Origin: a virus | Length of the DNA: 35,183 nucleotides | Virus genome (UHGV): UHGV-0213391 | Reading direction: 5' to 3' (one strand) | In this document: positions 2,703 to 19,948 of the stretch, piece after piece | Layout of the letters: each line of letters begins with the position of its first letter | How positions within the stretch are numbered: position 1 is the first letter of the stretch | Program-made: the position numbers and the translations under genes | The notes under the pieces: generated by a model | Told to the model about the DNA's origin: nothing | Seen by the model: only the letters and a program-made list of their open reading frames with translations | Databases searched by the model: none

Positions 2703-3428
2703 ATGATCAGAATCTATCTATTCACCTATGCCGGAGACGCGGATGAGGCGCAAGCCTGCGTCCGGTGCGCCTTGGCAGCCCTCCCTGAAGCCGTCATTAC
2801 CGTGGCGGACGATGATGCCGACCCAGTACCGGAACGCACCAGAAAGGCGCTTCTGGCAGCCGGAGCACGGTATTGCCAAACCAGCTTCCCGCGCCACGGC
2901 AACCTGCGCGGCCCGGAATGCGTCCGGGGCATTATCTCCATGCTGGCCGGAGAAGCGGCGGACGATGACATCGTCGTCAAAATCGACTCGGATACGGCGC
3001 TGCTCAACGGAGCATGGATCAGGGACATGTCTGAAACGGGGGCGCACTGGTGCGCCTCGGGAGCAGATAGTCGGCAATTCTACGGTCTGTGTTATGCCAT
3101 GACCGGACTGGCCGCCAAACGAGCCGCGGAAGTGCTGATGCACGCAGATATGCCGGACAACGCTCCGGAGGATCTTACCATCGGGCACACGGTCATTGAA
3201 CTTTTTGGGGTCAGCAAGGGGAGAATTATCCCCCCCTGGACGCCCCAAAACAGGGCTGGCCGCTGGTCTGCATGGAACTGGTTCAGCATCTCGGTCGCCC
3301 CGGAAAAATATGTTGGGTTTGACGTTGTAACCGTGGGAAGCCCCCGTCCTCCCCATATTCCAAAAGCAAACCGGGTACGCGTCATGGATGCCTTATTCCG
3401 CTGCCGTTTTCACCAGAAAGAAAACTGA
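2703..3428 (+). CDS. Hypothetical protein with DxD motif (possible GT-A-like nucleotide-sugar transferase fold)
   Basis: 'DIVVKIDSDTALL' is a DxD-like motif in an alpha/beta-like context. ATG starts 13 nt after the previous stop. Co-oriented with the 716-aa gene and followed by a terminator. Confidence 0.45.
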   Translation: MIRIYLFTYAGDADEAQACVRCALAALPEAVITVADDDADPVPERTRKALLAAGARYCQTSFPRHGNLRGPECVRGIISMLAGEAADDDIVVKIDSDTALLNGAWIRDMSETGAHWCASGADSRQFYGLCYAMTGLAAKRAAEVLMHADMPDNAPEDLTIGHTVIELFGVSKGRIIPPWTPQNRAGRWSAWNWFSISVAPEKYVGFDVVTVGSPRPPHIPKANRVRVMDALFRCRFHQKEN

Positions 3429-3433
3429 TCATC

Positions 3434-3449
3434 TTGTTGATATCAACAA
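3434..3449. promoter_or_regulatory. Perfect 16-bp palindrome TTGTTGATATCAACAA immediately after the operon stop
   Basis: Read directly; followed by a ~45-bp AT-rich stretch. Confidence 0.4.
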
Positions 3450-3565
3450 CATGACCCTGAGGGTAGGAAAGGAACTGTACAAAAAGCTGAACATTATATT
3501 CATAAGTATATTTATAATCAATAAATATAATCCCTCCCTGTCCGCCAGTTTTTTATTTCGCTAGA

Positions 3566-3608
3566 GCACGGAAAGCCTGATTTTACAAGGTTTCCGTGCT
3601 TTTTTATT
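3566..3608 (+). terminator. Rho-independent terminator
   Basis: Stem GCACGGAAAGCC / GGTTTCCGTGC (11 of 12 bp) with an 11-nt loop, followed by TTTTTTATT. Confidence 0.7.
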
Positions 3609-3641
3609 ACGCTACATTACCACAGAAAACGGAATGCTTGC

Positions 3642-3678
3642 TGTACAAGTGGCTGTACAAGTTTTAAAAATTGTACAG
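3642..3678. repeat. Three TGTACA(A)G repeats overlapping the integrase start (candidate operator or arm-type sites)
   Basis: ctGTACAAGtggctGTACAAGttttaaaaattGTACAGttctATG. TGTACA is self-complementary. A fourth copy lies at about 3474. Confidence 0.4.
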
Positions 3679-3682
3679 TTCT

Positions 3683-4870
3683 ATGGCGGGGATTATCAAA
3701 AGAAGCAATAAATGGGTAGCCGTCTTCAAGACGCTGGACGGCAAAGAGGTCAGGAAAACCACTCGTATTGACGTGGTGCCAAAGGTTATTCCACCCGGGG
3801 CAAACAAAAGAGCGGTCATAGCGCAAAACGAGGCCAGGGCTCGCCTTATTGCCGAAGAGCTTGAGCATGGACACAAGACCGGCTTTGTTGACTCGCAGCG
3901 GCTCAAAGCTATCGCTGGCGGAGATGTTCAGGCGACCAGCCTTGGCAGAAAGGCCGTGAGCGTTGGAGCGTATCTCCATGAATGGCTGCAATCACGATCC
4001 GGTAAGATTCAGGCACACGAAAGAGACGGGAAGGCCATCAAGCAGTTTATTTTGTTCCTGGGAAATGATGGAGGGCAAGCCATAGCATCCATCAACAAAG
4101 ACACCGTGAGACGGTTTTCGGAGACAGAAATGGAGCGCGTGTCATCCGGTACAGTGTCAAGGTATCTCGAATCTCTTTCCTGCGCGTTCAATCAGGCTGT
4201 CGAAAAAGAATTGATCATCTCCAATCCTTTCAGGGGAGCCAGGCTGGACAAGAAAAAAAAGCAGGACGACAAACAGGAGCGCAGCGCGTTCACCGTGGAG
4301 GAAGTCAAAAGGCTTGTAGAAATTTTACCGGGTGAATGGCCGGACATGATACGGGTATGCCTTTATACGGGCGGCCAGCGTTTGGGCGATATTGCCACCC
4401 TCAGATGGGAGCAGATCAACCTTGACGGCGGCCTGATTGCCATGACCTCACAAAAGACCAAGCGGCGTATGAACAAGCCCATCATCGGGCCGCTGAAAGA
4501 GATTTTGGAAGAGAGGGAGAGATATTCCATCAATGAATTTGTGTTCCCTTTGGCCGCCATGAAACATGCACAAGGCGGCGGGAAGTCCAGCAAGCTCTCT
4601 CTTGAGTTTACCGGACTGCTGAAAAAACACGGCATCATTTCTTCCGGGGAAAGGAAAGGGAAGGGAGACAAGCGCGTGCTGTCTGAAAAAAGCTTTCACA
4701 GCCTGAGGGCGACCGCGGTAACGATTTTACGGTTGGCAGGGGTGCCGGCTGACTTGTGCCGATTCATCGTAGGACATGACTCTGAAGAGATTGAACGGGT
4801 GTATTTCCGGCCCGACTCGCAGGATGTCGTGCATGCAATAGAGGAAATATCCAGCAAGATTGTTTTGTAA
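3683..4870 (+). CDS. int: Tyrosine-type phage integrase
   Basis: The N-terminal arm-binding-like segment 'KRSNKWVAVFKTLDGKEVRKTTRI' matches phage integrases. The C-terminus 'HSLRATAVT...GHDSEEIERVYFR' carries the H-x-x-R ... Y catalytic signature. ATG at 3683; the ORF track's TTG is at 3671. Confidence 0.85.
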   Translation: MAGIIKRSNKWVAVFKTLDGKEVRKTTRIDVVPKVIPPGANKRAVIAQNEARARLIAEELEHGHKTGFVDSQRLKAIAGGDVQATSLGRKAVSVGAYLHEWLQSRSGKIQAHERDGKAIKQFILFLGNDGGQAIASINKDTVRRFSETEMERVSSGTVSRYLESLSCAFNQAVEKELIISNPFRGARLDKKKKQDDKQERSAFTVEEVKRLVEILPGEWPDMIRVCLYTGGQRLGDIATLRWEQINLDGGLIAMTSQKTKRRMNKPIIGPLKEILEERERYSINEFVFPLAAMKHAQGGGKSSKLSLEFTGLLKKHGIISSGERKGKGDKRVLSEKSFHSLRATAVTILRLAGVPADLCRFIVGHDSEEIERVYFRPDSQDVVHAIEEISSKIVL

Positions 4871-5284: not shown

Positions 5285-5662
5285 TTATTCCTCTTTGTCT
5301 TTCTCCTCCTGAAGCCGTTTGAGAAGCAGTTCTTTATTGTCTCCCGCATATTCCAATACGTAAATAATCCAGTCTACGATATTCATACCGCAGGATTTCG
5401 CATACTTGTTGAATTCGAGGAATTTATCAGGTGAAACCTTGAGGTTAATGTCGAAATCAGGAATAGATACTTGGCTATCGCCTGAAGGCTTGGGTTGGCT
5501 CATTAGGTTGTCGATAATGATCATTGCCTTTTTAGGGATGGTGCGGCTTTTTGAAAACCAGTTGTTGACTACTAGGTATTTCACGCCGCACTGATCTGCC
5601 AGCCATTGCCGAGTTTTCCCAATTTCTTTAAGCCATTGATCTATCTCTTCTTTCGTGTGCAT
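5285..5662 (-). CDS. CI-like HTH (XRE-family) transcriptional repressor
   Basis: 'IGKTRQWLADQCGVKYLVVNNWFSKSRTIPKK' fits a helix-turn-helix. It is transcribed divergently from the early operon, is AT-rich, and the intergenic region carries an operator-like inverted repeat. Confidence 0.6.
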   Translation of the reverse strand: MHTKEEIDQWLKEIGKTRQWLADQCGVKYLVVNNWFSKSRTIPKKAMIIIDNLMSQPKPSGDSQVSIPDFDINLKVSPDKFLEFNKYAKSCGMNIVDWIIYVLEYAGDNKELLLKRLQEEKDKEE

Positions 5663-8519: not shown

Positions 8520-9518
8520 ATGAGCGAACAACTTGAAATCATCCCCTTGAATGTGAGCGCCAAAGGCGAAGTGCTTTCTTCCAATCTGGCCGAATTCCGC
8601 GCCTCCGTCAAAACCGTCCTGGACAGCATCAAACTCACCCCCGAAACCGATGAAGAATTCGGATTGGCTGAACAAAACGTCAAAATGCTCAAGGGAGCGG
8701 AAGATACCGTCAAGGCGGCCAGGGAAAAAGCCCTGAAGGATGCCCAGAGCCTCCATGAATTCTTTGCCGCGCTGGACGAATCCAGTGAAGAAATCCGGCA
8801 AGCCCGGCTTACCCTGGAAAAGAAGATCGCCGGAGAGAAAGAGAAAATCCGCAACAAGCTGATCGATGCCGCCCTTGCCTGCCTGGAATGTGCTCCCCAT
8901 TTGCGGAAGAAAGTATTTGGCGGCACAATGGCGGAAGCCATTAAAGGAAAACGCACCATTAAAAGCATTGAAGCTGCTTTAGATGCGGCAGTATCCGGGG
9001 TGAACAGTACCATCACCACCAACCGCGGCATCATCCTCGAATTCATGGAAGCGTACGATGGAAACCTTGTGTTGGATAAAGACGAGCTTGAAACAAGATC
9101 AACGATCTATGTTGAGTCCGAATTGCACCGCCGCCAAGATGCCGCCAACGCTGCCAAAGAGCGGGCCAGGCTGGCCGAAGAAGCCCGGAAGGCACGGGAA
9201 GAAGCCGAACAGGCAAAAACGAAACTGAAGGAGCAGGGCAAGCCTCCTGTCCCTCCGTCTCCTTCCGTCATCAACATGACCGCGTTTGAACCAGACCCGG
9301 AACCAGTTCGTGTTCCGGCTTCCGCGGCATCTCCGGCGCCGGTGAGCGAATCAGAAGAATGGAGTCAATTCCAAGCTGCCGTTTTTGGAGCCTTTGCAAA
9401 GCTCAAGGATGCCCGCGGGAAGCTCACCCACCCCGCCAACAAACGCCGCGTTGCCTATTTTGCTCAGGCCGTCAACAAGGCGTGGGAAACCTGCATAGCG
9501 GAAGGAGGTCAACAGTGA
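8520..9518 (+). CDS. Hypothetical coiled-coil protein with Pro-rich C-terminus, recombination-module associated
   Basis: Lies between recT and the exonuclease gene; no catalytic motif recognised. Confidence 0.5.
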   Translation: MSEQLEIIPLNVSAKGEVLSSNLAEFRASVKTVLDSIKLTPETDEEFGLAEQNVKMLKGAEDTVKAAREKALKDAQSLHEFFAALDESSEEIRQARLTLEKKIAGEKEKIRNKLIDAALACLECAPHLRKKVFGGTMAEAIKGKRTIKSIEAALDAAVSGVNSTITTNRGIILEFMEAYDGNLVLDKDELETRSTIYVESELHRRQDAANAAKERARLAEEARKAREEAEQAKTKLKEQGKPPVPPSPSVINMTAFEPDPEPVRVPASAASPAPVSESEEWSQFQAAVFGAFAKLKDARGKLTHPANKRRVAYFAQAVNKAWETCIAEGGQQ

Positions 9519-10153
9519 AAATCTGGCCCTCCATGGAGCAACGCTCTGACGCCTGGTTCCGCGCCCGCGCTGGCCGCCTGACGGCCAGCAACTTCAAAAA
9601 AGTACTTACCCCGAAAGGTGTAGATTCCCAATCGTGGCACAATCTCGCCCTGGAAATGTGTTGCAGCCGCGTCCGGCCCGATGAAATCCAATGGGAAGGC
9701 AACCGCCATACGGACCGCGGAACAGAACAGGAGCCGGAAGCCCGAGAAGAATTTAGCCGCATCATGGGGCTGGAAGTGGAACAGGTGGGATTTATCGTTC
9801 AAGACAATGAACTGGTGGGGTGCTCCCCTGACGGCATGATCAAAATCAATGGTGAATATGCTGCTGGGGTAGAATTCAAGTGCCCTATTTCCGTAATTCA
9901 CACACAGTACATATTGGATGGCATTTTGCCTGACAAATACAAGGCGCAGGTTCACGGCTCCATGATTGTGACGGGGCTTCCCTATTGGTATTTCATGAGC
10001 TATTGCCGCGGTTTTCGACCGTTTATTTTACGGGTGGAACGGGATAGCTACACCGACGAATTAGAAGATGCTATTGAGCGATTTATAATCTATTACGCAG
10101 ATTTTTATAAACGCAACATGCCTAAATTCGTTGAAGGAAGGAGGGCGGCATGA
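9515..10153 (+). CDS. YqaJ-like viral recombinase-type exonuclease (PD-(D/E)xK)
   Basis: SD GAAGGAGG lies 6 nt before GTG 9515. 'MEQRSDAWFRARAGRLTASNF' is the YqaJ N-terminal signature. The gene is paired with recT. Confidence 0.75.
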   Translation: MKIWPSMEQRSDAWFRARAGRLTASNFKKVLTPKGVDSQSWHNLALEMCCSRVRPDEIQWEGNRHTDRGTEQEPEAREEFSRIMGLEVEQVGFIVQDNELVGCSPDGMIKINGEYAAGVEFKCPISVIHTQYILDGILPDKYKAQVHGSMIVTGLPYWYFMSYCRGFRPFILRVERDSYTDELEDAIERFIIYYADFYKRNMPKFVEGRRAA

Positions 10154-13842: not shown

Positions 13843-15189
13843 ATGATCGACTCTCAAACACTTATTGACGCTGAAAAACTGGTGCTTTCCCAGGCTATGG
13901 ACGGCACCCAGGCATTTACGGACTTCCGGGACAAAGGCATTTCCCGGCAGACATTCAGCCTCCCGGCACATCAACAGATTTGGTCTGCCTTGGAAACCAT
14001 TGCCAAGACAGGCGGCACCGTGGATGCCCTGACCGTCATTGCTCACCTGGAGACTCAAGGCCAGCTTGACGCCGTAGGAGGGCACGCCGGGGTGGTAGAG
14101 ATTGCCACCTATGGAGCCCTTGCCCGCTACAAGACGGACGCTGCGCTGGAAATGGTCACGGAAGCCGCAAAAAGACGTTCTCTGCTCGCTTTTGCGTCCC
14201 GGATTGCGGAATGTGCCGGAGACCAGCTCAAAAGTGCGGAAGAGACATTGGATGAAGTTGAACGCGATATGTCCTCCCTGCGGGACAAATGCGGCGTCAA
14301 GCAAACCGAAACCATCCGCGGAGCGGTGGGCTCCATCATCGAAAACCTGCAATGGCGCATGAAGAACCCCGGCGCCATCAAGGGGCTGTCCTCCGGGTTC
14401 CGCCGTCTGAATCTGACCCTGGACGGGTTGCAGCCCGGCGCCATGATTGTGATCGCCGCCCGGCCCGGCGTCGGGAAAACCGCTGCCCTTGTCAACATCC
14501 TGACCAACATCTGCCTGGAAGGAACCCCCGTGGGAATGTTCAGCCTGGAAATGCCGAAAGCCCAGCTTTTGGAGCGCATTCTTTACGGCATGGCCGGCAT
14601 CAATTCCGACGACATTCGCCGCGGCAAGCCGATGACGGTCGGACAGCAACAGCATTTCACGGCTGCCGTGCGGAAAATCACGGATGCCCCGCTGCACATC
14701 GACGATGAAAGCGCCCTGACCATCGAAAAAATCAAGGCCCGCGGACGCCGGATGGTAAGGGAACACGGTGTCAAGTGCATCGGGGTAGACTACTTGCAGC
14801 TTGTGCGCTCCACGTCCCAGCAGGCCCGCGGGAGCCGGGAGCGGGAAGTCTCTGAAATCTCGGCTGGCCTGAAGGCTATGGCAAAAGAGTTGAATATTCC
14901 CGTCCTGGTGCTGGCCCAGCTCAACCGCGACGTGGAAAAGCGTCAAGGCAAGTCCCAGGGAAAGCCGGTTGTTTCCGACCTGCGCGACTCCGGATCCATT
15001 GAACAGGACGCGGACCAGATCATCATGATTCACCGGCCCGGAATGTATAATCCGGACAAGCACGCGCCCACAGAAGCGCAGTGGATTATTGGCAAAAACC
15101 GCTTTGGGCGTATGGGGCATATTCCGTTCCGTTGGATCGCGGAACTTACGAAATACGAAGAAGAATCTACAACCACCAGCAAATCATGA
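13843..15189 (+). CDS. dnaB: Replicative DNA helicase DnaB
   Basis: Walker A is 'IAARPGVGKTAAL'. 'DYLQLV' and 'SDLRDSGSIEQDADQIIMIHRP' are DnaB C-terminal motifs; the N-terminal domain is present. Confidence 0.9.
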   Translation: MIDSQTLIDAEKLVLSQAMDGTQAFTDFRDKGISRQTFSLPAHQQIWSALETIAKTGGTVDALTVIAHLETQGQLDAVGGHAGVVEIATYGALARYKTDAALEMVTEAAKRRSLLAFASRIAECAGDQLKSAEETLDEVERDMSSLRDKCGVKQTETIRGAVGSIIENLQWRMKNPGAIKGLSSGFRRLNLTLDGLQPGAMIVIAARPGVGKTAALVNILTNICLEGTPVGMFSLEMPKAQLLERILYGMAGINSDDIRRGKPMTVGQQQHFTAAVRKITDAPLHIDDESALTIEKIKARGRRMVREHGVKCIGVDYLQLVRSTSQQARGSREREVSEISAGLKAMAKELNIPVLVLAQLNRDVEKRQGKSQGKPVVSDLRDSGSIEQDADQIIMIHRPGMYNPDKHAPTEAQWIIGKNRFGRMGHIPFRWIAELTKYEEESTTTSKS

Positions 15190-15452
15190 AAAAACTAGAC
15201 ATCATCACTCAACCCTGCGGAGCTCATGCCTTGAGAATGTCCCTCTATTTGGGACCCAAGCGCAAGAGAATGAGAATTTGCATCGGGCTGGAAACACACG
15301 ATTACATGGAAGCCCAGCGCCGCGCATTGCTCCTTCTACGTTACAACAAACGCCTTGGAATTTATGATCAGGATATTCCCGGAGAAGCTGAAATCACATA
15401 TCCCGCAAAAACGGATGACTTGCCCCTGTTCCGGGGCGACAATGGCGAATAA
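15186..15452 (+). CDS. Hypothetical 88-aa protein; possible N-terminal remnant of a DnaC-like loader
   Basis: ATG overlaps the dnaB stop. 'LYLGPKRKRMRICIGL' weakly recalls a degenerate P-loop region. Confidence 0.4.
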   Translation: MKKLDIITQPCGAHALRMSLYLGPKRKRMRICIGLETHDYMEAQRRALLLLRYNKRLGIYDQDIPGEAEITYPAKTDDLPLFRGDNGE

Positions 15453-15454
15453 AA

Positions 15455-15838
15455 ATGGTAACACCCGTTGACATATTCCGGCGCAAGAAGTGCGTCCTCT
15501 ACTCCAAGGCCTATGATTACACGATGGCCCTGCGGGAGACGTTCAACGGCGGCGGCTCTGAATCGTCCGTCATGGCTCGCTACAAGGCGCCGTATCTGCT
15601 GGCCCTGGACGAGTATCACGAGGTAAAGGACACGGACTTTACAGGCCCGGCGCTGGAACGGCTCATTGACTACCGGCACCAGAACGGCAAGCCGACCATC
15701 ATCATTGCCAACTACAGCCCCGCCGCCCTGGAAGCTCATTTAGGCCCGGCCGTTGTTTCCCGCATCCATCTATGCGGCACCATCATCACGTGTGATTGGC
15801 AGTCCTATAGGGAGATCAACTACAACCTCCGGGAATAG
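15455..15838 (+). CDS. DnaC/IstB-like AAA+ helicase-loader C-terminal homologue lacking Walker A
   Basis: Compared from memory with E. coli DnaC. 'YLLALDEYH' is Walker B-like (DLLVIDEIG). 'NGKPTIIIANYS' resembles KRPTGMLTNSN. 'CDWQSYREI' resembles FNWDSYRSR. Confidence 0.6.
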   Translation: MVTPVDIFRRKKCVLYSKAYDYTMALRETFNGGGSESSVMARYKAPYLLALDEYHEVKDTDFTGPALERLIDYRHQNGKPTIIIANYSPAALEAHLGPAVVSRIHLCGTIITCDWQSYREINYNLRE

Positions 15839-15840
15839 CC

Positions 15841-15884
15841 CTGGAATCTCGTATACCCCCTGGAATCTCGTATAGGGCCCTATA
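15841..15884. repeat. Tandem direct repeat CTGGAATCTCGTATA x2 ending in palindrome TATAGGGCCCTATA (15871-15884), at the junction of convergent gene blocks
   Basis: Read directly. A further CCTATAGG palindrome lies at 15803-15810. Confidence 0.7.
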
Positions 15885-16182
15885 GGCTTTCTTCCTCCCA
15901 CAGTGGCGAAGGGTCATTAGGGTCAAGGGCTGGCAAGTCCGGCTGAATGAGGTACTTTGCGATGACGTCAACACCGTGCAGCAGCTTTTTCTGCATGCCG
16001 TCAAGCTGGCCTATGCAATAGCCAATGGTGCGGAGATCTCCGCGGGCTGTGGCGCGTTCCATTTCTTTGATGAGCTCCCGGAACTGGCGTTCATAACTTT
16101 CCTTCCATTCCGTGAGGATTTTGACGGCTTTTCCGCGTGTCTTCACACGCATAAGTTTTTCTTTCAGTGTTTTGCGTGCCAT
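15880..16182 (-). CDS. Hypothetical protein (100 aa, Lys/Glu-rich, helical)
   Basis: Last gene of the leftward accessory block. Confidence 0.45.
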   Translation of the reverse strand: MARKTLKEKLMRVKTRGKAVKILTEWKESYERQFRELIKEMERATARGDLRTIGYCIGQLDGMQKKLLHGVDVIAKYLIQPDLPALDPNDPSPLWEEESL

Positions 16183-16211
16183 AAAAAAGCCGCCCGGAAA
16201 TCCGGGCGGGG
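16183..16211 (-). terminator. Rho-independent terminator (minus strand)
   Basis: Minus-strand stem CCGCCCGG-ATTT-CCGGGCGG followed by CTTTTTTAT. Confidence 0.55.
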
Positions 16212-16218
16212 GCTGGGG

Positions 16219-16500
16219 TTAGGCAATCAAACAATGTTGAGCTACCACGGCATTACGCAGCATTGAGCAGGCATCAATCACCAGAGGAGAGTTATTGCCA
16301 ATCATGATTTTGCAGTCTTTTCCGGAAAAATAAATGTCTCCGATCATGTCCCCCTTTTCATCGATGATCCAGAGCTGAGGAGAAAAGCAGCGTGCCTTGT
16401 CAGTCATCAGATATTCAACAATCCATTCAACGGCATCATTAAGGGAGGCGTGAGTTTTAGCTGGTCCGTAAGCGGTGGTGATGTAGGTGTATTGATTCAT
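16219..16500 (-). CDS. Hypothetical protein (93 aa)
   Basis: Preceded (on the minus strand) by copy B of the duplicated promoter/leader element. Confidence 0.5.
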   Translation of the reverse strand: MNQYTYITTAYGPAKTHASLNDAVEWIVEYLMTDKARCFSPQLWIIDEKGDMIGDIYFSGKDCKIMIGNNSPLVIDACSMLRNAVVAQHCLIA

Positions 16501-16600
16501 TGTTTTGTTCTTTCAGTTTGTTGTTCTGTTTCCGGATCCTTACCTTCCGTCAACAAGACCAATATACTAAACAATGTTTAGTGACGCAAGAGAAAATTAC
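16501..16600 (-). promoter_or_regulatory. Copy B of the duplicated ~95-bp promoter/leader element, with 17-bp palindrome ACTAAACAATGTTTAGT (16566-16582)
   Basis: Near-identical to 17703-17800. Minus-sense order is palindrome, TTGTTGACGG, CTGAAAGAACAAAA, then ATG. Confidence 0.6.
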
Positions 16601-16811
16601 TTTCCCGACAACTTTTTTTCAAATCATGGTTTTCAATCGTCACAGCGATTAACTGCTGCATATAAGGCTGTAGCTTCCTTTTTCCATTTTTCCAATGATA
16701 GATACTCATTTCCGTAACCTTTAAAAGCTCCATAGCCTTTTTTACCGCATCATAAGGATTTTTTAATTCATAGGTCTTGTAAATCCAGTCGAGGAATTCT
16801 TGGATAGTCAT
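16578..16811 (-). CDS. Small HTH DNA-binding regulator (77 aa)
   Basis: 'AVKKAMELLKVTEMSIYHWKNGKRKL' is a helix-turn-helix. Its stop codon lies inside the palindrome of copy B. Confidence 0.5.
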   Translation of the reverse strand: MTIQEFLDWIYKTYELKNPYDAVKKAMELLKVTEMSIYHWKNGKRKLQPYMQQLIAVTIENHDLKKSCRESNFLLRH

Positions 16812-16826
16812 GATTTTGTTTTCTGT

Positions 16827-17702
16827 TTAGTCCCACATGGCCTCTTGAGGGAGCCAGTTGTCAAGAATTGATTGAGCTTCTTCCAAGCTTCCGCCATTTT
16901 TCAAGAGTTCCAGGGCTTTTTTTCCTGCGGCTATTTTGCTGTGATGGCTCGCCAGGGTATAGCTTGTTGCGTTTAGGGCCAGTGCGGCGCGGGGGTATTT
17001 GGCGCGGGCGGCGTTTAACTCGGATTCAATGGCTGCGGTGTTGATGGGGCTATACGCAGGGTTGTTTTCGATGTTGTCCCATGCCCGGCGGTTTTTATCC
17101 CATGCCTTGTTCCAACGCGCGGTTATTTCCCGGAGTTCAGAAATTCCGGGGAAAAGCCTTTCTTCTTGTTTTTGGAAAAGCTGCTGACGTTTGGCAATGA
17201 TGTCCGTGATGACGTCTTCTGCAACGGTGATAAACAAGTTTTCCCCGGTCGGAACCTTGCCGCGCAGGGCAAATTGCCCCTTCAGGGGTGCAATGTCCGC
17301 TTCCGTGGTGAATTTGCCAAAAGGAGGAATTGTGAGTTCAGCGGTGATTGTATCTGCCGTGAGAGTGATTGCTACTTCCGTTCCGCGGGTTGTTGTGGTG
17401 TTGATGGTGGCTGATTCTCCGGCAGGTTTTTCCTGCGGCTCTTCCGCAGAGGCGGAAGGGGTTACAATGTCTCGGATGGCTTCGACGGCTTCGTCTCCAA
17501 TGGTGAGTGTCCGCTTGCCGCTTTTGTCGTTGGTGATGGTTCCGTCCGGGAGGATAGTAACAAAATCACGGCCAAAGTAGATTCGGGATTGCGTGTTGCC
17601 GTTCCAGACGCGGGCAGATTCGCCATAGTAGAGATAGCCTTTAGAATTGAGTGCCCGGACAATCTGTTCCGCCGTCAAGTTTTTGGTGTTGGTGATTTCC
17701 AT
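16827..17702 (-). CDS. Hypothetical protein (291 aa), first gene of the leftward accessory block
   Basis: Long ORF with no recognisable motifs. Its start abuts copy A of the promoter/leader element. Confidence 0.55.
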   Translation of the reverse strand: MEITNTKNLTAEQIVRALNSKGYLYYGESARVWNGNTQSRIYFGRDFVTILPDGTITNDKSGKRTLTIGDEAVEAIRDIVTPSASAEEPQEKPAGESATINTTTTRGTEVAITLTADTITAELTIPPFGKFTTEADIAPLKGQFALRGKVPTGENLFITVAEDVITDIIAKRQQLFQKQEERLFPGISELREITARWNKAWDKNRRAWDNIENNPAYSPINTAAIESELNAARAKYPRAALALNATSYTLASHHSKIAAGKKALELLKNGGSLEEAQSILDNWLPQEAMWD

Positions 17703-17800
17703 GATTTTGTTCTTTCAGTTGTTCAGTCTCTGGGTTCCTTACCTCCCGTCAACAAGGTTAATTTACTAAACAATGTTTAGTAGTGCAAGAGGAAAATGCA
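17703..17800 (-). promoter_or_regulatory. Copy A of the duplicated promoter/leader element, with palindrome ACTAAACAATGTTTAGT (17765-17781)
   Basis: About 85% identical to copy B over about 95 bp, including the start-codon context. Confidence 0.6.
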
Positions 17801-17868
17801 GCATGTGCAAAAAAAACTTTGCTCGGCTTCAAAAAATGTGGGAAAAGAAGGTATTCTGAATGTTCTTT

Positions 17869-17990
17869 CAGATGCCGCCCTTCGGGGCGTGGATTGAAAA
17901 ACTGCCTGTTTAGGGAATTCTCCCTTTGGCCGTGTATCGTCCAATTCCTTACAAGAGGGCGGCTGCTTCGGCGGCCGCCCTTTTGCTTAT
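17869..17990 (+). ncRNA. Candidate small structured RNA or terminator: two UUCG-tetraloop hairpins, the second followed by a U-tract
   Basis: Hairpin 1 is CCGCCC-TTCG-GGGCG (17869-17886). Hairpin 2 is GGGCGGCTGC-TTCG-GCGGCCGCCC (17957-17980), followed by TTTTGCTT. Confidence 0.35.
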
Positions 17991-18011
17991 GGAGAGACAA
18001 GAACAAACAAC

Positions 18012-18569
18012 ATGCTTGATTTACGGGAGCAAAATCTCTTATGGTGCACCCGCAGGAAAAAGAAACAATCACCTACCACCAACAAGAAAATAGGACGGCC
18101 CAGCCTCTATACGGAGGCACTAGCCGCCGAGATAGCCTCCAGGCTGGCTGCTGGGGAAACGATGAAGTCCATCTGCTCGGACGATCACATGCCGGAGGTT
18201 TGGACGGTTTGGAATTGGCGTGAAACCAAGCCGGAGTTTTCCAAACTCATTCAACGCGCACGGGAAGCGCAGTCGGAAGCACTGCTTGACGAGTGCCAGT
18301 CTTTGTCAGATGCCGCTGCTCAGGTTGCGCTCGACCCTGAATGTGGCTCTGCCTCCGTCGCCGCGAAGAAGCTCGCCATTGAAACGCGGCTGAAAGTGGC
18401 CGCCCGCTTCGCCCCCGAGAAATTCGGCGACCGAGTCCGGCAGGATGTAGCGGGCGTTCCAGGCGCTCCATTGGAACGCAAGATCACTCTGGACCCCGAG
18501 CAGCTTGCCCGGCTCCAGGAAGACGAGAAAACCGCGCTGGAAACCATCGCTGGCAAGCTCAATCCCTAG
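18012..18569 (+). CDS. terS: Terminase small subunit
   Basis: 'GRPSLYTEALAAEIASRLAAGETMKSICSDDHMPEVWTVWNWRETKPEFSKLIQRAREAQSEALLDE' matches the Terminase_2-type TerS pattern. Confidence 0.75.
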   Translation: MLDLREQNLLWCTRRKKKQSPTTNKKIGRPSLYTEALAAEIASRLAAGETMKSICSDDHMPEVWTVWNWRETKPEFSKLIQRAREAQSEALLDECQSLSDAAAQVALDPECGSASVAAKKLAIETRLKVAARFAPEKFGDRVRQDVAGVPGAPLERKITLDPEQLARLQEDEKTALETIAGKLNP

Positions 18570-18640: not shown

Positions 18641-19948
18641 GTGGAGGCCATCAAGGCGCTATCCCTTGGCAAGATTGCCCTGGGCGGAAAAAGCGTGGCT
18701 CTGGTAGCCCCCAACGGATCAGGCAAGACAAGCAACTGCATTGCGCCGGCCATCCTGTACTTTCTCACCTGTTTTCCGCGGGGACAGGTTCCCGTCACGT
18801 CCTCTTCGTGGATGCAAGTGGAAAAGCAGCTCTTCCCGTCGCTGCGCCGCTACATGGACAACCCCTTCTTCGCCGGCTGGACGTTCAACAAGACGGAAAT
18901 CCGTACCCCTGAAGGAGGTTTTGCCGTGGGATTCTCCACCGACAACGCCGGACGCGCGGAAGGATGGCACCCGAAAATATCGCCCGACGTGGACCCGGTC
19001 TTTTACGTCCTCGACGAAGCCAAGACCATCCCGGACCCCATCTTTACCGCGGTTTCCCGCTGCACGCTCTTTCATGCGTTCATCACATCGTCACCTGGAG
19101 CTGACTCCGGCACCTTCTACGACTGCTTCCACAAAAATTCCTCCCTCTACTACAAAATCCGCGTCAAGTACGAGGACTGCCCCCACATTGAAATCAACGA
19201 CCCAGGCAAGGCTGCCCGCATCAAAAAAGAATACGGCGAGCAATCCTCCTTCTATCGCTCCGCCATCCTCGGAGAATTCACGGACCTTGACGGGCAATCC
19301 GTCATTTCCCGCCGCGCCCTCATGGAGCTGCTTAACAATCCGCCTCCCTTTTTGGACACCGGGGAGACCTGCGGCGGCTTTGACTTCGCCGCCGGAGGCG
19401 ATGAAAACGTCTTTGCTGCCGGGCAGGGCAACCGGTTCTTCATCGCGGACCACTGGGCAGACCCGGACACCGTAGGAGCGCGCGGACGGTTCCGCCGCAA
19501 GGCCGCCGAACTCGGCATTCCAGCCGACCGCATTTTCGCGGATGGAGACGGCCTTGGACTCCCCCTCATTGACGACTTCCGCGCCGAGGGCTTCCCGGTG
19601 CACTCCTACCGGGGCGGATTTCCCGCCGACGATACGCAGGCCTTTGTCAACATCCGCGCCCAGGCATGGAGAGCATTGGCACGTGCGATCGAGGAAAAAG
19701 AGCTCATCCTCGACATTGATGAGGACACCATTGAGCAGCTTGTCGCGCCGCGCGTCCAGACGGACGCAATTGGCCGCGTCAAAATCGAGAGTAAGGAGGA
19801 CATGGCGAAGCGCGGCGTCCGCTCTCCCGACCGTGCTGATGCGCTCGTCATGGCCTGGCACGCGCGCCGGCACAGCGGGCTTGTCCGGGAGCTTGGAGCG
19901 TGGTATGCCAGACATCCGGCACAAAAACGCTCCATTGGCAGATATTAG
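18641..19948 (+). CDS. terL: Terminase large subunit (probable true start upstream at AGG 18575)
   Basis: Walker A-like 'VALVAPNGSGKT', Walker B 'YVLDEAK', and a nuclease-domain C-terminus. The conserved '...LDPYPWQ' lies in-frame upstream of the first canonical start (GTG 18641). Confidence 0.85.
   Translation: MEAIKALSLGKIALGGKSVALVAPNGSGKTSNCIAPAILYFLTCFPRGQVPVTSSSWMQVEKQLFPSLRRYMDNPFFAGWTFNKTEIRTPEGGFAVGFSTDNAGRAEGWHPKISPDVDPVFYVLDEAKTIPDPIFTAVSRCTLFHAFITSSPGADSGTFYDCFHKNSSLYYKIRVKYEDCPHIEINDPGKAARIKKEYGEQSSFYRSAILGEFTDLDGQSVISRRALMELLNNPPPFLDTGETCGGFDFAAGGDENVFAAGQGNRFFIADHWADPDTVGARGRFRRKAAELGIPADRIFADGDGLGLPLIDDFRAEGFPVHSYRGGFPADDTQAFVNIRAQAWRALARAIEEKELILDIDEDTIEQLVAPRVQTDAIGRVKIESKEDMAKRGVRSPDRADALVMAWHARRHSGLVRELGAWYARHPAQKRSIGRY

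What the first reader, a model, noticed from the sequence alone, without database searches (positions are those of the whole stretch)
15880..17800. Leftward accessory block of four unknown genes driven by a duplicated promoter/leader carrying a 17-bp palindrome
An island transcribed against the rest of the phage sits between the replication and packaging modules. It holds proteins of 291, 77 (HTH), 93 and 100 aa. A ~95-bp element is present twice (17703-17800 and 16501-16600, about 85% identical). In each copy it lies directly upstream of a gene start and includes the start-codon context (CTGAAAGAACAAAAYMATG), a TTGTTGACGG -35-like box and a perfect 17-bp palindrome ACTAAACA-A-TGTTTAGT. Copy B's palindrome overlaps the stop codon of the HTH gene. 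This looks like a co-regulated, probably repressor-controlled, two-promoter module with an autoregulatory HTH protein. Cargo at this position in temperate phages is often defence, anti-defence or toxin-antitoxin functions. None of the four proteins has a recognisable domain.
Basis: partly seen in the sequence, partly recalled or inferred. Interest (0 to 1): 0.7.

Follow-up and report, generated by a model that had tools for sequence, protein, structure and literature searches.

The report
Self-repressed variable-cargo operons in Akkermansia phage
A gut Akkermansia prophage carries two backward-facing gene cassettes whose promoters hold the same 17-bp palindrome, most likely the binding site of a small DNA-binding protein encoded in the first cassette; the layout matches phage counter-defence operons, but what the cargo proteins do is unknown.

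Summary
Four minus-strand genes (291, 77, 93 and 100 aa) lie between the dnaB/dnaC and terS genes of an Akkermansia prophage. A ~100-bp promoter/leader is present twice, at 82-84% identity. Each copy holds the perfect palindrome ACTAAACAATGTTTAGT, found nowhere else in the window.

Two details need correcting. The promoter is TTGCnn-17 bp-TAWATT with the palindrome inside the spacer; TTGTTGACGG lies downstream, around the predicted transcript start. The 100-aa gene lies behind a strong terminator.

Roughly 35-40 related Akkermansia-phage contigs share the promoter/leader scaffold. It carries six different spacer palindromes, and each goes with its own variants of a Cro-like HTH protein. That protein is normally the last or second-to-last gene. 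Upstream cargo is shuffled: a pentapeptide-repeat protein, very acidic proteins and unknowns.

This supports HTH autorepression. The architecture is that of anti-CRISPR/Aca (counter-defence) operons. Membership is unproven: the HTH matched no solved Aca protein by sequence, and the 291- and 93-aa proteins have confident models but no known fold.

Verdict: new member of a known kind, moderately interesting.

The parts
17783..17788 (-). Promoter A, -35 hexamer TTGCAC
   Evidence: TTG is invariant in 13 aligned promoter variants, and spacing to the -10 is always 17 bp. The hexamer reads TTGACA in operator class 2.
17765..17781 (.). Operator A: perfect 17-bp palindrome ACTAAACA-A-TGTTTAGT inside the promoter spacer, overlapping the first base of the -10
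   Evidence: The same site is seen in about 15 Akkermansia-phage contigs.
17760..17765 (-). Promoter A, -10 hexamer TAAATT
   Evidence: TAnnTT is conserved in all variants.
17703..17753 (-). Leader A. The predicted start is near G17753. It holds the invariant TTGTTGA, a G-rich GGGAGGTAAGG block with a weak hairpin (17731-17748), and an A-rich ribosome site without a Shine-Dalgarno motif
   Evidence: (z = +1.0 for this copy). The transcription start is inferred, not measured.
16827..17702 (-). 291-aa cargo protein made of three parts: an alpha/beta N-domain (1-80), a beta domain (98-158) and a helical domain (162-289)
16578..16811 (-). 77-aa Cro/YdaS-like HTH protein, the proposed repressor of both promoters
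   Evidence: Weak HTH matches only. It co-occurs with the operator, and its recognition helix varies with operator class.
16584..16589 (-). Promoter B, -35 hexamer TTGCGT, lying inside the last codons of the 77-aa ORF
16566..16582 (.). Operator B: the same 17-bp palindrome. It contains the stop codon of the 77-aa gene (16578-16580)
16561..16566 (-). Promoter B, -10 hexamer TATATT
16501..16554 (-). Leader B. The predicted start is near G16554. It has a hairpin CGGA...TCCG (16533-16549)
   Evidence: -9.2 kcal/mol, z = -1.95
16219..16500 (-). 93-aa cargo protein with an alpha/beta fold
16183..16209 (-). Intrinsic terminator: an 8-bp all-GC stem, a 4-nt loop and CTTTTTT, ending at the ATG of the next gene
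15880..16182 (-). 100-aa protein. In sister phages it is the gene directly after the HTH gene
   Evidence: 18 homologue clusters and no Pfam hit. It sits next to the HTH gene, with a 4-nt gap or an overlap, in L072, L079 and L081-L084.
17796..17984 (.). Conserved upstream stretch that travels with the module. It holds two GC hairpins, the second followed by a T-run on the + strand (17955-17985)
   Evidence: Similarity between the window and L006 runs up to 17984, although the flanking genes differ. Only sub-threshold Rfam hits.

Best explanation
The block is a composite accessory locus made of two cassettes under one repressor.

**Promoters (inferred).** Each cassette starts with a sigma-70-type promoter, TTGCnn-17 bp-TAWATT, read leftward. 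Its spacer is filled by the 17-bp palindrome.

**Repressor (inferred).** The 77-aa Cro-like HTH protein is the second gene of cassette 1. It is proposed to bind the palindrome as a dimer and exclude RNA polymerase from both promoters. The predicted behaviour is a burst of cargo when phage DNA enters a cell that lacks the HTH, or when the genome copy number rises. Shut-down to a low steady level would follow.

**Cassettes (shown).** Cassette 1 encodes the 291-aa protein and the HTH. Cassette 2 encodes the 93-aa protein and ends at a strong terminator. The 100-aa gene normally follows the HTH gene directly in sister phages. Here it has been displaced behind that terminator.

**Origin of cassette 2 (inferred).** The second promoter copy most likely arose when a promoter-plus-cargo cassette was inserted by recombination in the conserved leader.

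**Leader (inferred).** The conserved 5' leader hairpin probably affects mRNA stability or translation in a general way. It does not change with operator class.

**Cargo (inferred).** The layout works like an anti-CRISPR/Aca locus. The cargo proteins are therefore most likely inhibitors of host defence systems.

**What is shown:** the sequence anatomy, conservation, co-occurrence, operator/HTH co-variation and cassette swapping.

**What is inferred:** promoter activity, the direction of regulation, and the cargo function.

**My estimates:** about 0.8 for the regulatory architecture and about 0.4 for the counter-defence function.
For: **Promoter.** The -35 TTG, the 17-bp spacing and the -10 TAnnTT are invariant across 13 aligned variants. 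The positions that vary are the non-critical ones. Class 2 has a consensus TTGACA.

**Operator.** The palindrome is exact in both copies and occurs nowhere else in the window.

**Link between HTH and operator.**
- An HTH homologue lies 0.4-1 kb downstream of the element in every contig long enough.
- Six operator classes sit on the same scaffold. Each HTH recognition-helix variant maps to only one operator class.
- In one case a symmetric change in both half-sites (GAATAC..GTATTC to GGATAC..GTATCC) goes with a Tyr-to-Asn change in the helix.
- L009 and L020 carry two tandem operons, each with its own operator and its own HTH.

**Cargo is variable and shuffled.**
- The window and L006 differ by an exact swap of 16188-16497.
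- Sister cargo includes a pentapeptide-repeat protein (PF00805, E = 6e-38).
- It also includes proteins of pI 4.0-4.9 with net charge down to -28.

**The cargo genes encode real proteins.** pLDDT is 85.5 for the 291-aa protein and 82.9 for the 93-aa protein.

**Published parallels for acr-aca operons.**
- An inverted repeat inside the core promoter, repressed by a downstream HTH (PMC9410906, PMC6765145).
- Structured 5' UTR motifs, and Aca proteins controlling adjacent operons (PMC13551039).

**Selective pressure.**
- Akkermansia also carries BREX and restriction-modification loci (PMC10799925).
Against: - There are no experimental data.
- The window's own -35 hexamers match the consensus at only 3 of 6 positions. 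The consensus scan did not flag either promoter.
- The HTH assignment rests on sub-threshold matches: N15 Cro at E = 0.018, and YdaS or HTH_23 at E = 0.002-0.03.
- The HTH shows no sequence similarity to any solved Aca protein.
- Operator class 3 goes with three rather different recognition helices, so the mapping is many-to-one.
- None of the window's cargo proteins resembles a known anti-defence protein by sequence or fold.
- The window's cargo is only mildly acidic (pI 5.1-5.4).
- At 291 aa, the first protein is longer than typical Acr proteins.
- The leader hairpin of copy A is no more stable than shuffled sequence.
Confidence: 0.5

Rival explanations
1. The cargo genes are prophage-expressed morons that benefit the lysogen, for example by superinfection exclusion or defence against other phages. 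The HTH only keeps their expression at a steady level.
For: The block has its own promoters and a terminator, and it runs opposite to the phage genes. It is present in some related phages and absent in others. An identical 291-aa protein is common in Akkermansia assemblies, on 194 contigs including a 547-kb one. This fits stable carriage in lysogens.
Against: There are no PADLOC hits. Sister cargo is small, soluble and very acidic, or is a pentapeptide-repeat protein. These are the hallmarks of inhibitors and DNA mimics rather than defence effectors. No membrane or nuclease features were seen. Negative feedback from a terminal HTH is the pattern described for anti-defence operons (PMC9410906).
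Confidence: 0.2
2. The block is a second immunity or antirepressor region, like immI of phage P22. The cargo would inactivate the main CI-like repressor or otherwise steer the lysis-lysogeny decision, held in check by the small HTH.
For: Like P22 Ant (about 300 aa, from my own knowledge), the 291-aa cargo sits in a separately repressed operon outside the main immunity region. The window has a separate CI/Cro-like region at about 5.1-6.0 kb.
Against: There is no ANT, KilAC or Bro domain hit. The cargo is non-homologous between phages with similar backbones. That is unexpected for a factor that must fit one repressor. The palindrome is absent from the CI/Cro region.
Confidence: 0.1
3. The block holds one or two type II toxin-antitoxin pairs, with the HTH as the autoregulating antitoxin. 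Candidate pairs are 291 aa with HTH, or HTH with the 100-aa protein.
For: A palindromic operator with an HTH autoregulator is also the toxin-antitoxin pattern. In sister phages the HTH gene and the 100-aa gene are separated by 4 nt or overlap.
Against: The HTH stays while its upstream partners are unrelated proteins. The 66-aa HTH phages lack the 100-aa gene altogether. In the window the 100-aa gene is uncoupled from the HTH by a cassette and a terminator. No toxin family hit was found. The 93-aa cassette has no partner gene. The HTH has no extra domain that could neutralise a toxin.
Confidence: 0.05
4. The cargo serves another early phage function, such as host takeover, or helping replication or packaging. 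The resemblance to acr-aca operons would be regulatory only.
For: The fold searches found no informative match. The block lies between the replication and packaging modules.
Against: The nearest phages lack the block. The module sits in a different genomic neighbourhood in L006, L079 and L081, next to lysis genes or the integrase. So it is not tied to replication or packaging.
Confidence: 0.15

Closest known systems
Anti-CRISPR/Aca (acr-aca) operons of phages and prophages
   Same: Variable, mostly small and acidic cargo genes are followed in the same operon by a conserved small HTH. An inverted repeat sits inside the core promoter. The 5' UTR is structured and conserved. The same operator appears on an adjacent operon. 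See PMC9410906, PMC6765145 and PMC13551039, compared.
   Different: The HTH shows no detectable sequence relation to solved Aca proteins. No cargo is a known Acr. One cargo protein is 291 aa. The host phylum is Verrucomicrobiota, and the 2026 Aca survey (PMC13551039) does not mention it. Six operator specificities share one constant promoter/leader scaffold. The leader hairpin does not vary with the regulator, unlike the Aca1 and Aca2 RNA motifs.
Phage morons (extra genes with their own promoter and terminator inserted between conserved phage genes)
   Same: The block has its own promoters, the 93-aa cassette has a terminator, related phages differ in presence or absence, and cassettes are replaced exactly.
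   Different: Morons are usually described as single constitutive units (from my own knowledge). Here a dedicated repressor and a reusable promoter/leader scaffold organise a multi-cassette locus.
P22 immI region (ant operon controlled by Mnt and Arc)
   Same: A separately repressed operon lies outside the main immunity region, with a small repressor encoded in the operon (from my own knowledge).
   Different: Arc and Mnt are ribbon-helix-helix proteins, and Arc is the first gene of its operon. The cargo here has no antirepressor domains and is not conserved.
Type II toxin-antitoxin modules with an HTH antitoxin
   Same: Autoregulation through a palindromic operator, and tightly spaced small genes.
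   Different: There is no conserved cognate partner and no toxin domain. The HTH is a minimal DNA-binding domain.

Membership tests
acr-aca operon | A small HTH regulator is encoded in the same operon, downstream of the cargo | tested here: met
   In the window the 77-aa gene starts 15 nt after the 291-aa gene. In sister contigs the HTH is the last or second-to-last gene.
acr-aca operon | An inverted repeat lies within the core promoter (IR1 of PMC9410906) | tested here: met
   The 17-bp palindrome fills the 17-bp spacer of both promoters. The same build is seen in all six operator classes.
acr-aca operon | The regulator belongs to a defined Aca family (Aca1-14) | tested here: not met
   Profiles of the HTH family (A3, A6) searched against all PDB chains at E up to 10 returned only N15 Cro, a generic HTH entry (2a6c) and non-HTH noise. 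No Aca entry appeared. Aca1, Aca2 and Aca10 have published structures (PMC8633003, PMC8434428, PMC9410881). The Aca HMM library itself was not available, so the other families remain untested.
acr-aca operon | At least one cargo gene is a validated Acr or a homologue of one | tested here: not met
acr-aca operon | AcaFinder short-gene-operon rules: same strand, intergenic gaps under 250 bp, all proteins under 200 aa (PMC9765179) | tested here: not met
   Strand and gaps (15, 77 and 36 nt) fit the rules. The 291-aa protein exceeds the length limit.
acr-aca operon | The HTH represses the promoter, and the cargo inhibits CRISPR-Cas | not testable with these tools
   This needs reporter, gel-shift and phage-challenge experiments.
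Type II toxin-antitoxin | A cognate two-gene pair is co-conserved across genomes | tested here: not met
   The same HTH variants occur with unrelated upstream genes. The 100-aa gene is absent from the 66-aa-HTH phages.
Type II toxin-antitoxin | A recognisable toxin domain | tested here: not met
   Pfam, NCBIfam and PADLOC gave no hit for the 291-, 93- or 100-aa proteins.
Phage moron | Own promoter and terminator, inserted between genes that are adjacent in related phages | tested here: met
   Promoters are inferred from conservation. The block is missing from Chantilly, Chambord and DTMo-2021a, which match only the flanks. Promoter activity itself has not been tested.
Cro/YdaS-like HTH (Pfam clan CL0123) | A match above the Pfam gathering score to an HTH family | tested here: inconclusive
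   Of 11 family members, 6 hit YdaS (best E = 0.0034) and 5 hit HTH_23 (best E = 0.0016). All are below the cut-off, but all fall on the same segment. N15 Cro matches at E = 0.018.
P22 immI-type antirepressor operon | Cargo with ANT, KilAC or Bro antirepressor domains | tested here: not met
   No such Pfam or PHROG hit.

The most novel reading that the evidence does not exclude
The constant promoter/leader scaffold plus the Cro-like HTH marks a previously undescribed counter-defence cassette locus of Akkermansia phages. On this reading the 291-aa and 93-aa proteins of this window are new inhibitors of Akkermansia immune systems (CRISPR-Cas, BREX or restriction-modification). So are the pentapeptide-repeat and acidic proteins of sister phages. 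The six operator/HTH specificity classes would have evolved to escape cross-repression by the regulators of resident prophages.
Probability: 0.35. Interest if true: 0.7.

Novelty: new member of a known kind. Interest (0 to 1): 0.55.

Why it matters
Akkermansia muciniphila is a major gut commensal and a probiotic candidate, and little is known about how its phages deal with host immunity. Relatives of this phage are among the viruses most heavily targeted by CRISPR in Akkermansia genomes.

If the reading is right, two practical things follow:
- The conserved 19-nt leader motif and the HTH family give a search handle, by guilt by association, for a pool of candidate anti-defence proteins in a phylum where none are known.
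- The operator/HTH classes provide a ready-made set of mutually distinct repressor-promoter pairs for genetic tools in Akkermansia.

If the cargo turns out to protect the lysogen instead, the same handle would index prophage-encoded defence cargo.

Tried and rejected
- **TTGTTGACGG as a -35 box: rejected.** The bases 16-18 nt downstream are variable and never look like a -10.
- **ArdC-like anti-restriction domain in the 291-aa protein: rejected.** The hit is E = 0.015, below the cut-off, and only 4 of 19 close homologues show it.
- **Known RNA family for the leader: none.** Rfam gives only sub-threshold hits on an upstream hairpin.
- **GGGAGGT as a functional Shine-Dalgarno site or leader peptide: rejected.** No start codon follows it, and none of 30 genes checked in the window uses such a motif.
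- **Leader hairpin as an HTH-specific RNA operator (Aca2-like): disfavoured.** It stays the same across operator classes.
- **Palindrome shared with the CI/Cro region: no**.
- **SOS (LexA) box: set aside from memory only.** It was not compared with any LexA motif here.
- **Element present outside Akkermansia: no.** The genome-wide scan gave 34 hits. Only the A. muciniphila hit has the full scaffold, and the rest are chance.
- **Consensus structure of the leader with alifold: uninformative.** The MAFFT alignment was not structure-consistent.
Full report
**1. What is there**

The window is a temperate Akkermansia phage or prophage. Its DnaB region is 84% identical in DNA to Akkermansia phages Chantilly and Chambord. 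Its terminase region is 85% identical to phage DTMo-2021a. Window positions about 15490-18047 match none of the three.

The gene order is as follows:
- integrase (3671-4870)
- CI-like repressor (5285-5662, minus strand)
- RecT and a RecE-like exonuclease
- a DNA methyltransferase
- a replication initiator
- DnaB (13843-15189)
- a DnaC-like fragment (15455-15838)
- the leftward block
- TerS (18012-18569) and TerL (18641-19948)

**2. The repeat**

Copy A (about 17700-17795) and copy B (about 16498-16596) are 82-84% identical. Both contain the perfect palindrome ACTAAACAATGTTTAGT. No other site with up to three mismatches exists in the window (0.07 expected).

Sister contigs have one more A in an A-run and encode a 71-aa protein that ends before the promoter. 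The overlap is therefore a frameshift in the C-terminal tail, not a design feature.

**3.

I collected 14 distinct versions of the element from related contigs, plus divergent ones. Read on the transcribed strand, the conserved features are:
- a T-rich stretch
- TTG, the start of the -35
- exactly 17 bp that contain the palindrome
- TAnnTT, the -10

The bases that vary are the last three of the -35 hexamer and the base next to the palindrome. A sigma-70-type promoter tolerates change at these positions.

In the window the hexamers are TTGCAC/TAAATT (17788-17783 and 17765-17760) and TTGCGT/TATATT (16589-16584 and 16566-16561). The simple consensus scan missed them because the -35 matches only 3 of 6 positions.

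TTGTTGACGG lies after the -10, around the predicted transcript start. Nothing resembling a -10 follows it in any variant.

**4. Link between the HTH and the palindrome**

A homologue of the 77-aa protein (44-47% identical) lies 0.4-1 kb downstream of the element in every related contig long enough to show it.

Searching with the conserved leader instead of the palindrome, and with the HTH alignment, showed that one promoter/leader scaffold carries six different spacer palindromes. Each goes with its own recognition-helix variants:

| Class | Operator | HTH recognition-helix region |
|---|---|---|
| 1 | ACTAAACA-W-TGTTTAGT | TEMSIYHW (window type) and TEMAVWQW |
| 2 | ACTATC-N5-GATAGT | TRVTVWRW |
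| 3 | ACTATAAA-T-TTTATAGT | SEHTIKAR, TEDAVWKW and SEITIWKW |
| 4a | GAATAC-CTA-GTATTC | TKDGIYKW |
| 4b | GGATAC-CTA-GTATCC | TKDGINKW |
| 5 | GTGTAC-TAG-GTGCAC | TKWLVYRW |
| 6 | ATCATT-G-AATGAT | KEITVWEW |

- No helix variant appears with two operator classes.
- Between 4a and 4b, a symmetric change in both half-sites goes with a Tyr-to-Asn change in the helix.
- Contigs L009 and L020 carry two tandem operons, each with its own operator and its own HTH.
- Class 3 is many-to-one. That weakens a strict code.

This is correlative evidence, but it is the pattern expected of cognate repressor-operator pairs. A palindrome that fills an optimal 17-bp spacer implies repression by blocking polymerase. 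That step is inference.

**5. Is the 77-aa protein an HTH?**

The evidence is weak but consistent:
- PHROG transcription-regulator families match at E = 0.06-0.16.
- YdaS, P22_Cro and HTH_23 match family members at E = 0.002-0.03, always on the same segment.
- Phage N15 Cro is the best PDB match to the family profile, at E = 0.018.

No solved Aca protein was retrieved.

**6. The cargo**

*The 291-aa protein.*
- It has only 20 homologue clusters, and the only named one is from Akkermansia.
- It is modular. Its roughly 85-aa N-domain is also fused to two unrelated acidic domains. Its C-terminal part also occurs alone.
- The model is confident (pLDDT 85.5).
- The sub-threshold ArdC-N hit is noise.

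*The 93-aa protein.* It has a confident alpha/beta model (pLDDT 82.9) and no significant match.

*The 100-aa protein.*
- It has 18 homologue clusters and no domain.
- In sister phages its gene follows the HTH gene directly, with a 4-nt gap or an overlap.
- In the window and in L006, a second promoter-plus-cargo cassette sits between the two genes.
- In the window that cassette brings a strong terminator (16209-16190) that ends at the ATG of the 100-aa gene.

*Cassette swap.* The window and L006 differ by an exact replacement of 16188-16497, a 93-aa gene against a 121-aa gene. The boundaries are the conserved leader on one side and the 100-aa gene on the other.

*Sister cargo.*
- a pentapeptide-repeat protein (PF00805, E = 6e-38)
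- proteins with pI 4.0-4.9 and net charge down to -28
- several small proteins of unknown function

These modules are shuffled among operator classes.

**7. The leader**

All variants keep YTTGTTGA and a G-rich GGGAGGTAAGG-like block just after the -10. Most fold into a small 5'-proximal hairpin. Some stem changes are compensatory (CGGA/TCCG, CGGG/CCCG, GGGG/CCCC, CGGGAGGT/ACCTCCCG).

The stability z-scores are modest, from -0.8 to -4.2. The window's copy A is no better than shuffled sequence.

None of 30 genes checked in the window has a Shine-Dalgarno motif, so the G-rich block is unusual here. It does not change with operator class. A general role in mRNA stability or translation is therefore more likely than HTH-specific RNA binding.

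No Rfam family matches.

**8. Distribution**

True copies of the scaffold occur only in Akkermansia-type viral contigs. In the one-genome-per-species collection they occur in a single A. muciniphila genome. The other 33 hits there are chance matches without the scaffold.

The module is usually between dnaC and terS. In other phages it lies next to the lysis genes or the integrase. It is therefore a mobile accessory module and not part of replication or packaging.

**9. Comparison with what is known**

The closest known system is the anti-CRISPR/Aca operon. Its published features are:
- variable cargo followed by a conserved small HTH
- an inverted repeat within the core promoter, through which the HTH represses (PMC9410906, PMC6765145)
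- structured 5' UTR motifs, and control of adjacent operons by the same regulator (PMC13551039)

All the architectural features are met here. Three membership features are not met:
- the regulator matches no solved Aca protein
- no cargo is a known Acr
- one cargo protein is above the usual size limit (PMC9765179)

I therefore say it works like an acr-aca locus, but I do not file it as one.

The context makes counter-defence plausible. Viruses classified as phage DTMo-2021a, a relative of this phage, are targeted by spacers in about 85% of the genomes of two Akkermansia species. Akkermansia also carries BREX and restriction-modification loci (PMC10799925). DNA mimics such as Ocr inhibit BREX (PMC7261183) and, from my own knowledge, type I restriction.

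**10. Rivals**

- *Lysogen-benefit moron (0.2).* It fits the autonomous promoter and terminator. It fits the nature of the cargo less well.
- *Some other early function (0.15).* It cannot be excluded.
- *Antirepressor region (0.1).* It lacks any antirepressor domain, and the cargo is not conserved.
- *Toxin-antitoxin (0.05).* It is contradicted by the non-conserved partners.

**11. Verdict**

The regulatory interpretation is well supported by comparative evidence (about 0.8). The function of the cargo is unresolved, and counter-defence is the best guess (about 0.4). I found no description of this locus in the searchable literature.

It is a new member of a known kind of system in a poorly studied phage group. 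It comes with a useful search handle and a natural set of repressor-operator pairs. Interest is moderate, at 0.55.

Noticed in passing
window 15839-15884: Two tandem copies of CCCTGGAATCTCGTATA follow the dnaC-like stop codon. They run into a 14-bp palindrome, TATAGGGCCCTATA, that overlaps the stop of the 100-aa gene. The same unit occurs in 1 to 6 tandem copies at this junction in sister phages, with six in L009. Function unknown; it could be a protein-binding array or an unusual terminator.
   Followed up: partly
window 15455-15838: The DnaC-like helicase-loader gene encodes only the C-terminal 127 aa. It aligns to residues 126-246 of the 246-aa protein in L015, which carries the Walker A motif GTGKT in its N-terminal half. 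The window has unrelated sequence at 15190-15454. The loader may be truncated or split.
   Followed up: partly
window 16590-16605: A poly-A run has 7 A in the window and 8 A in L005, L006 and L007. This shifts the C-terminal tail of the HTH protein (77 aa against 71 aa) and moves its stop codon into operator B.
   Followed up: yes
window 17796-17984: A 190-bp stretch upstream of promoter A is conserved with L006, although the neighbouring genes differ. It holds a palindrome CTGAAAGAACATTCAG (17859-17874) that repeats the leader's CTGAAAGAACA. It also holds two GC hairpins. The second (17955-17985) has a T-run on the + strand just before terS. It may be a small RNA, a terminator for late-gene control, or a relic of a third cassette junction.
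   Followed up: partly
whole window (30 gene starts): No gene start has a Shine-Dalgarno-like motif. Upstream regions are rich in A and C. This suggests Shine-Dalgarno-independent initiation in this phage and host.
   Followed up: partly
L072 4318-4983: In one sister contig, a 68-aa ORF and a 138-aa ORF follow the operon (cargo, HTH, 98-aa gene). By eye they look like a HicA-like toxin and a HicB/XRE-like antitoxin. They were not scanned against any family library.
   Followed up: no
L013 4883-5398 and equivalents in L011, L015, L025, L029: Many sister phages carry a 171-aa Cys-rich zinc-ribbon protein between terS and the promoter, on the same strand as the operon. It has a weak YacG-like hit at E = 0.005. 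The window lacks it.
   Followed up: no
L009 (reverse strand) 2800-3785; L020 (reverse strand) 9060-10042: A second operon lies upstream, with the same promoter build but a different palindrome. It encodes a 93-94-aa protein and a 196-aa protein made of a very acidic N-terminal part fused to the HTH domain.
   Followed up: yes
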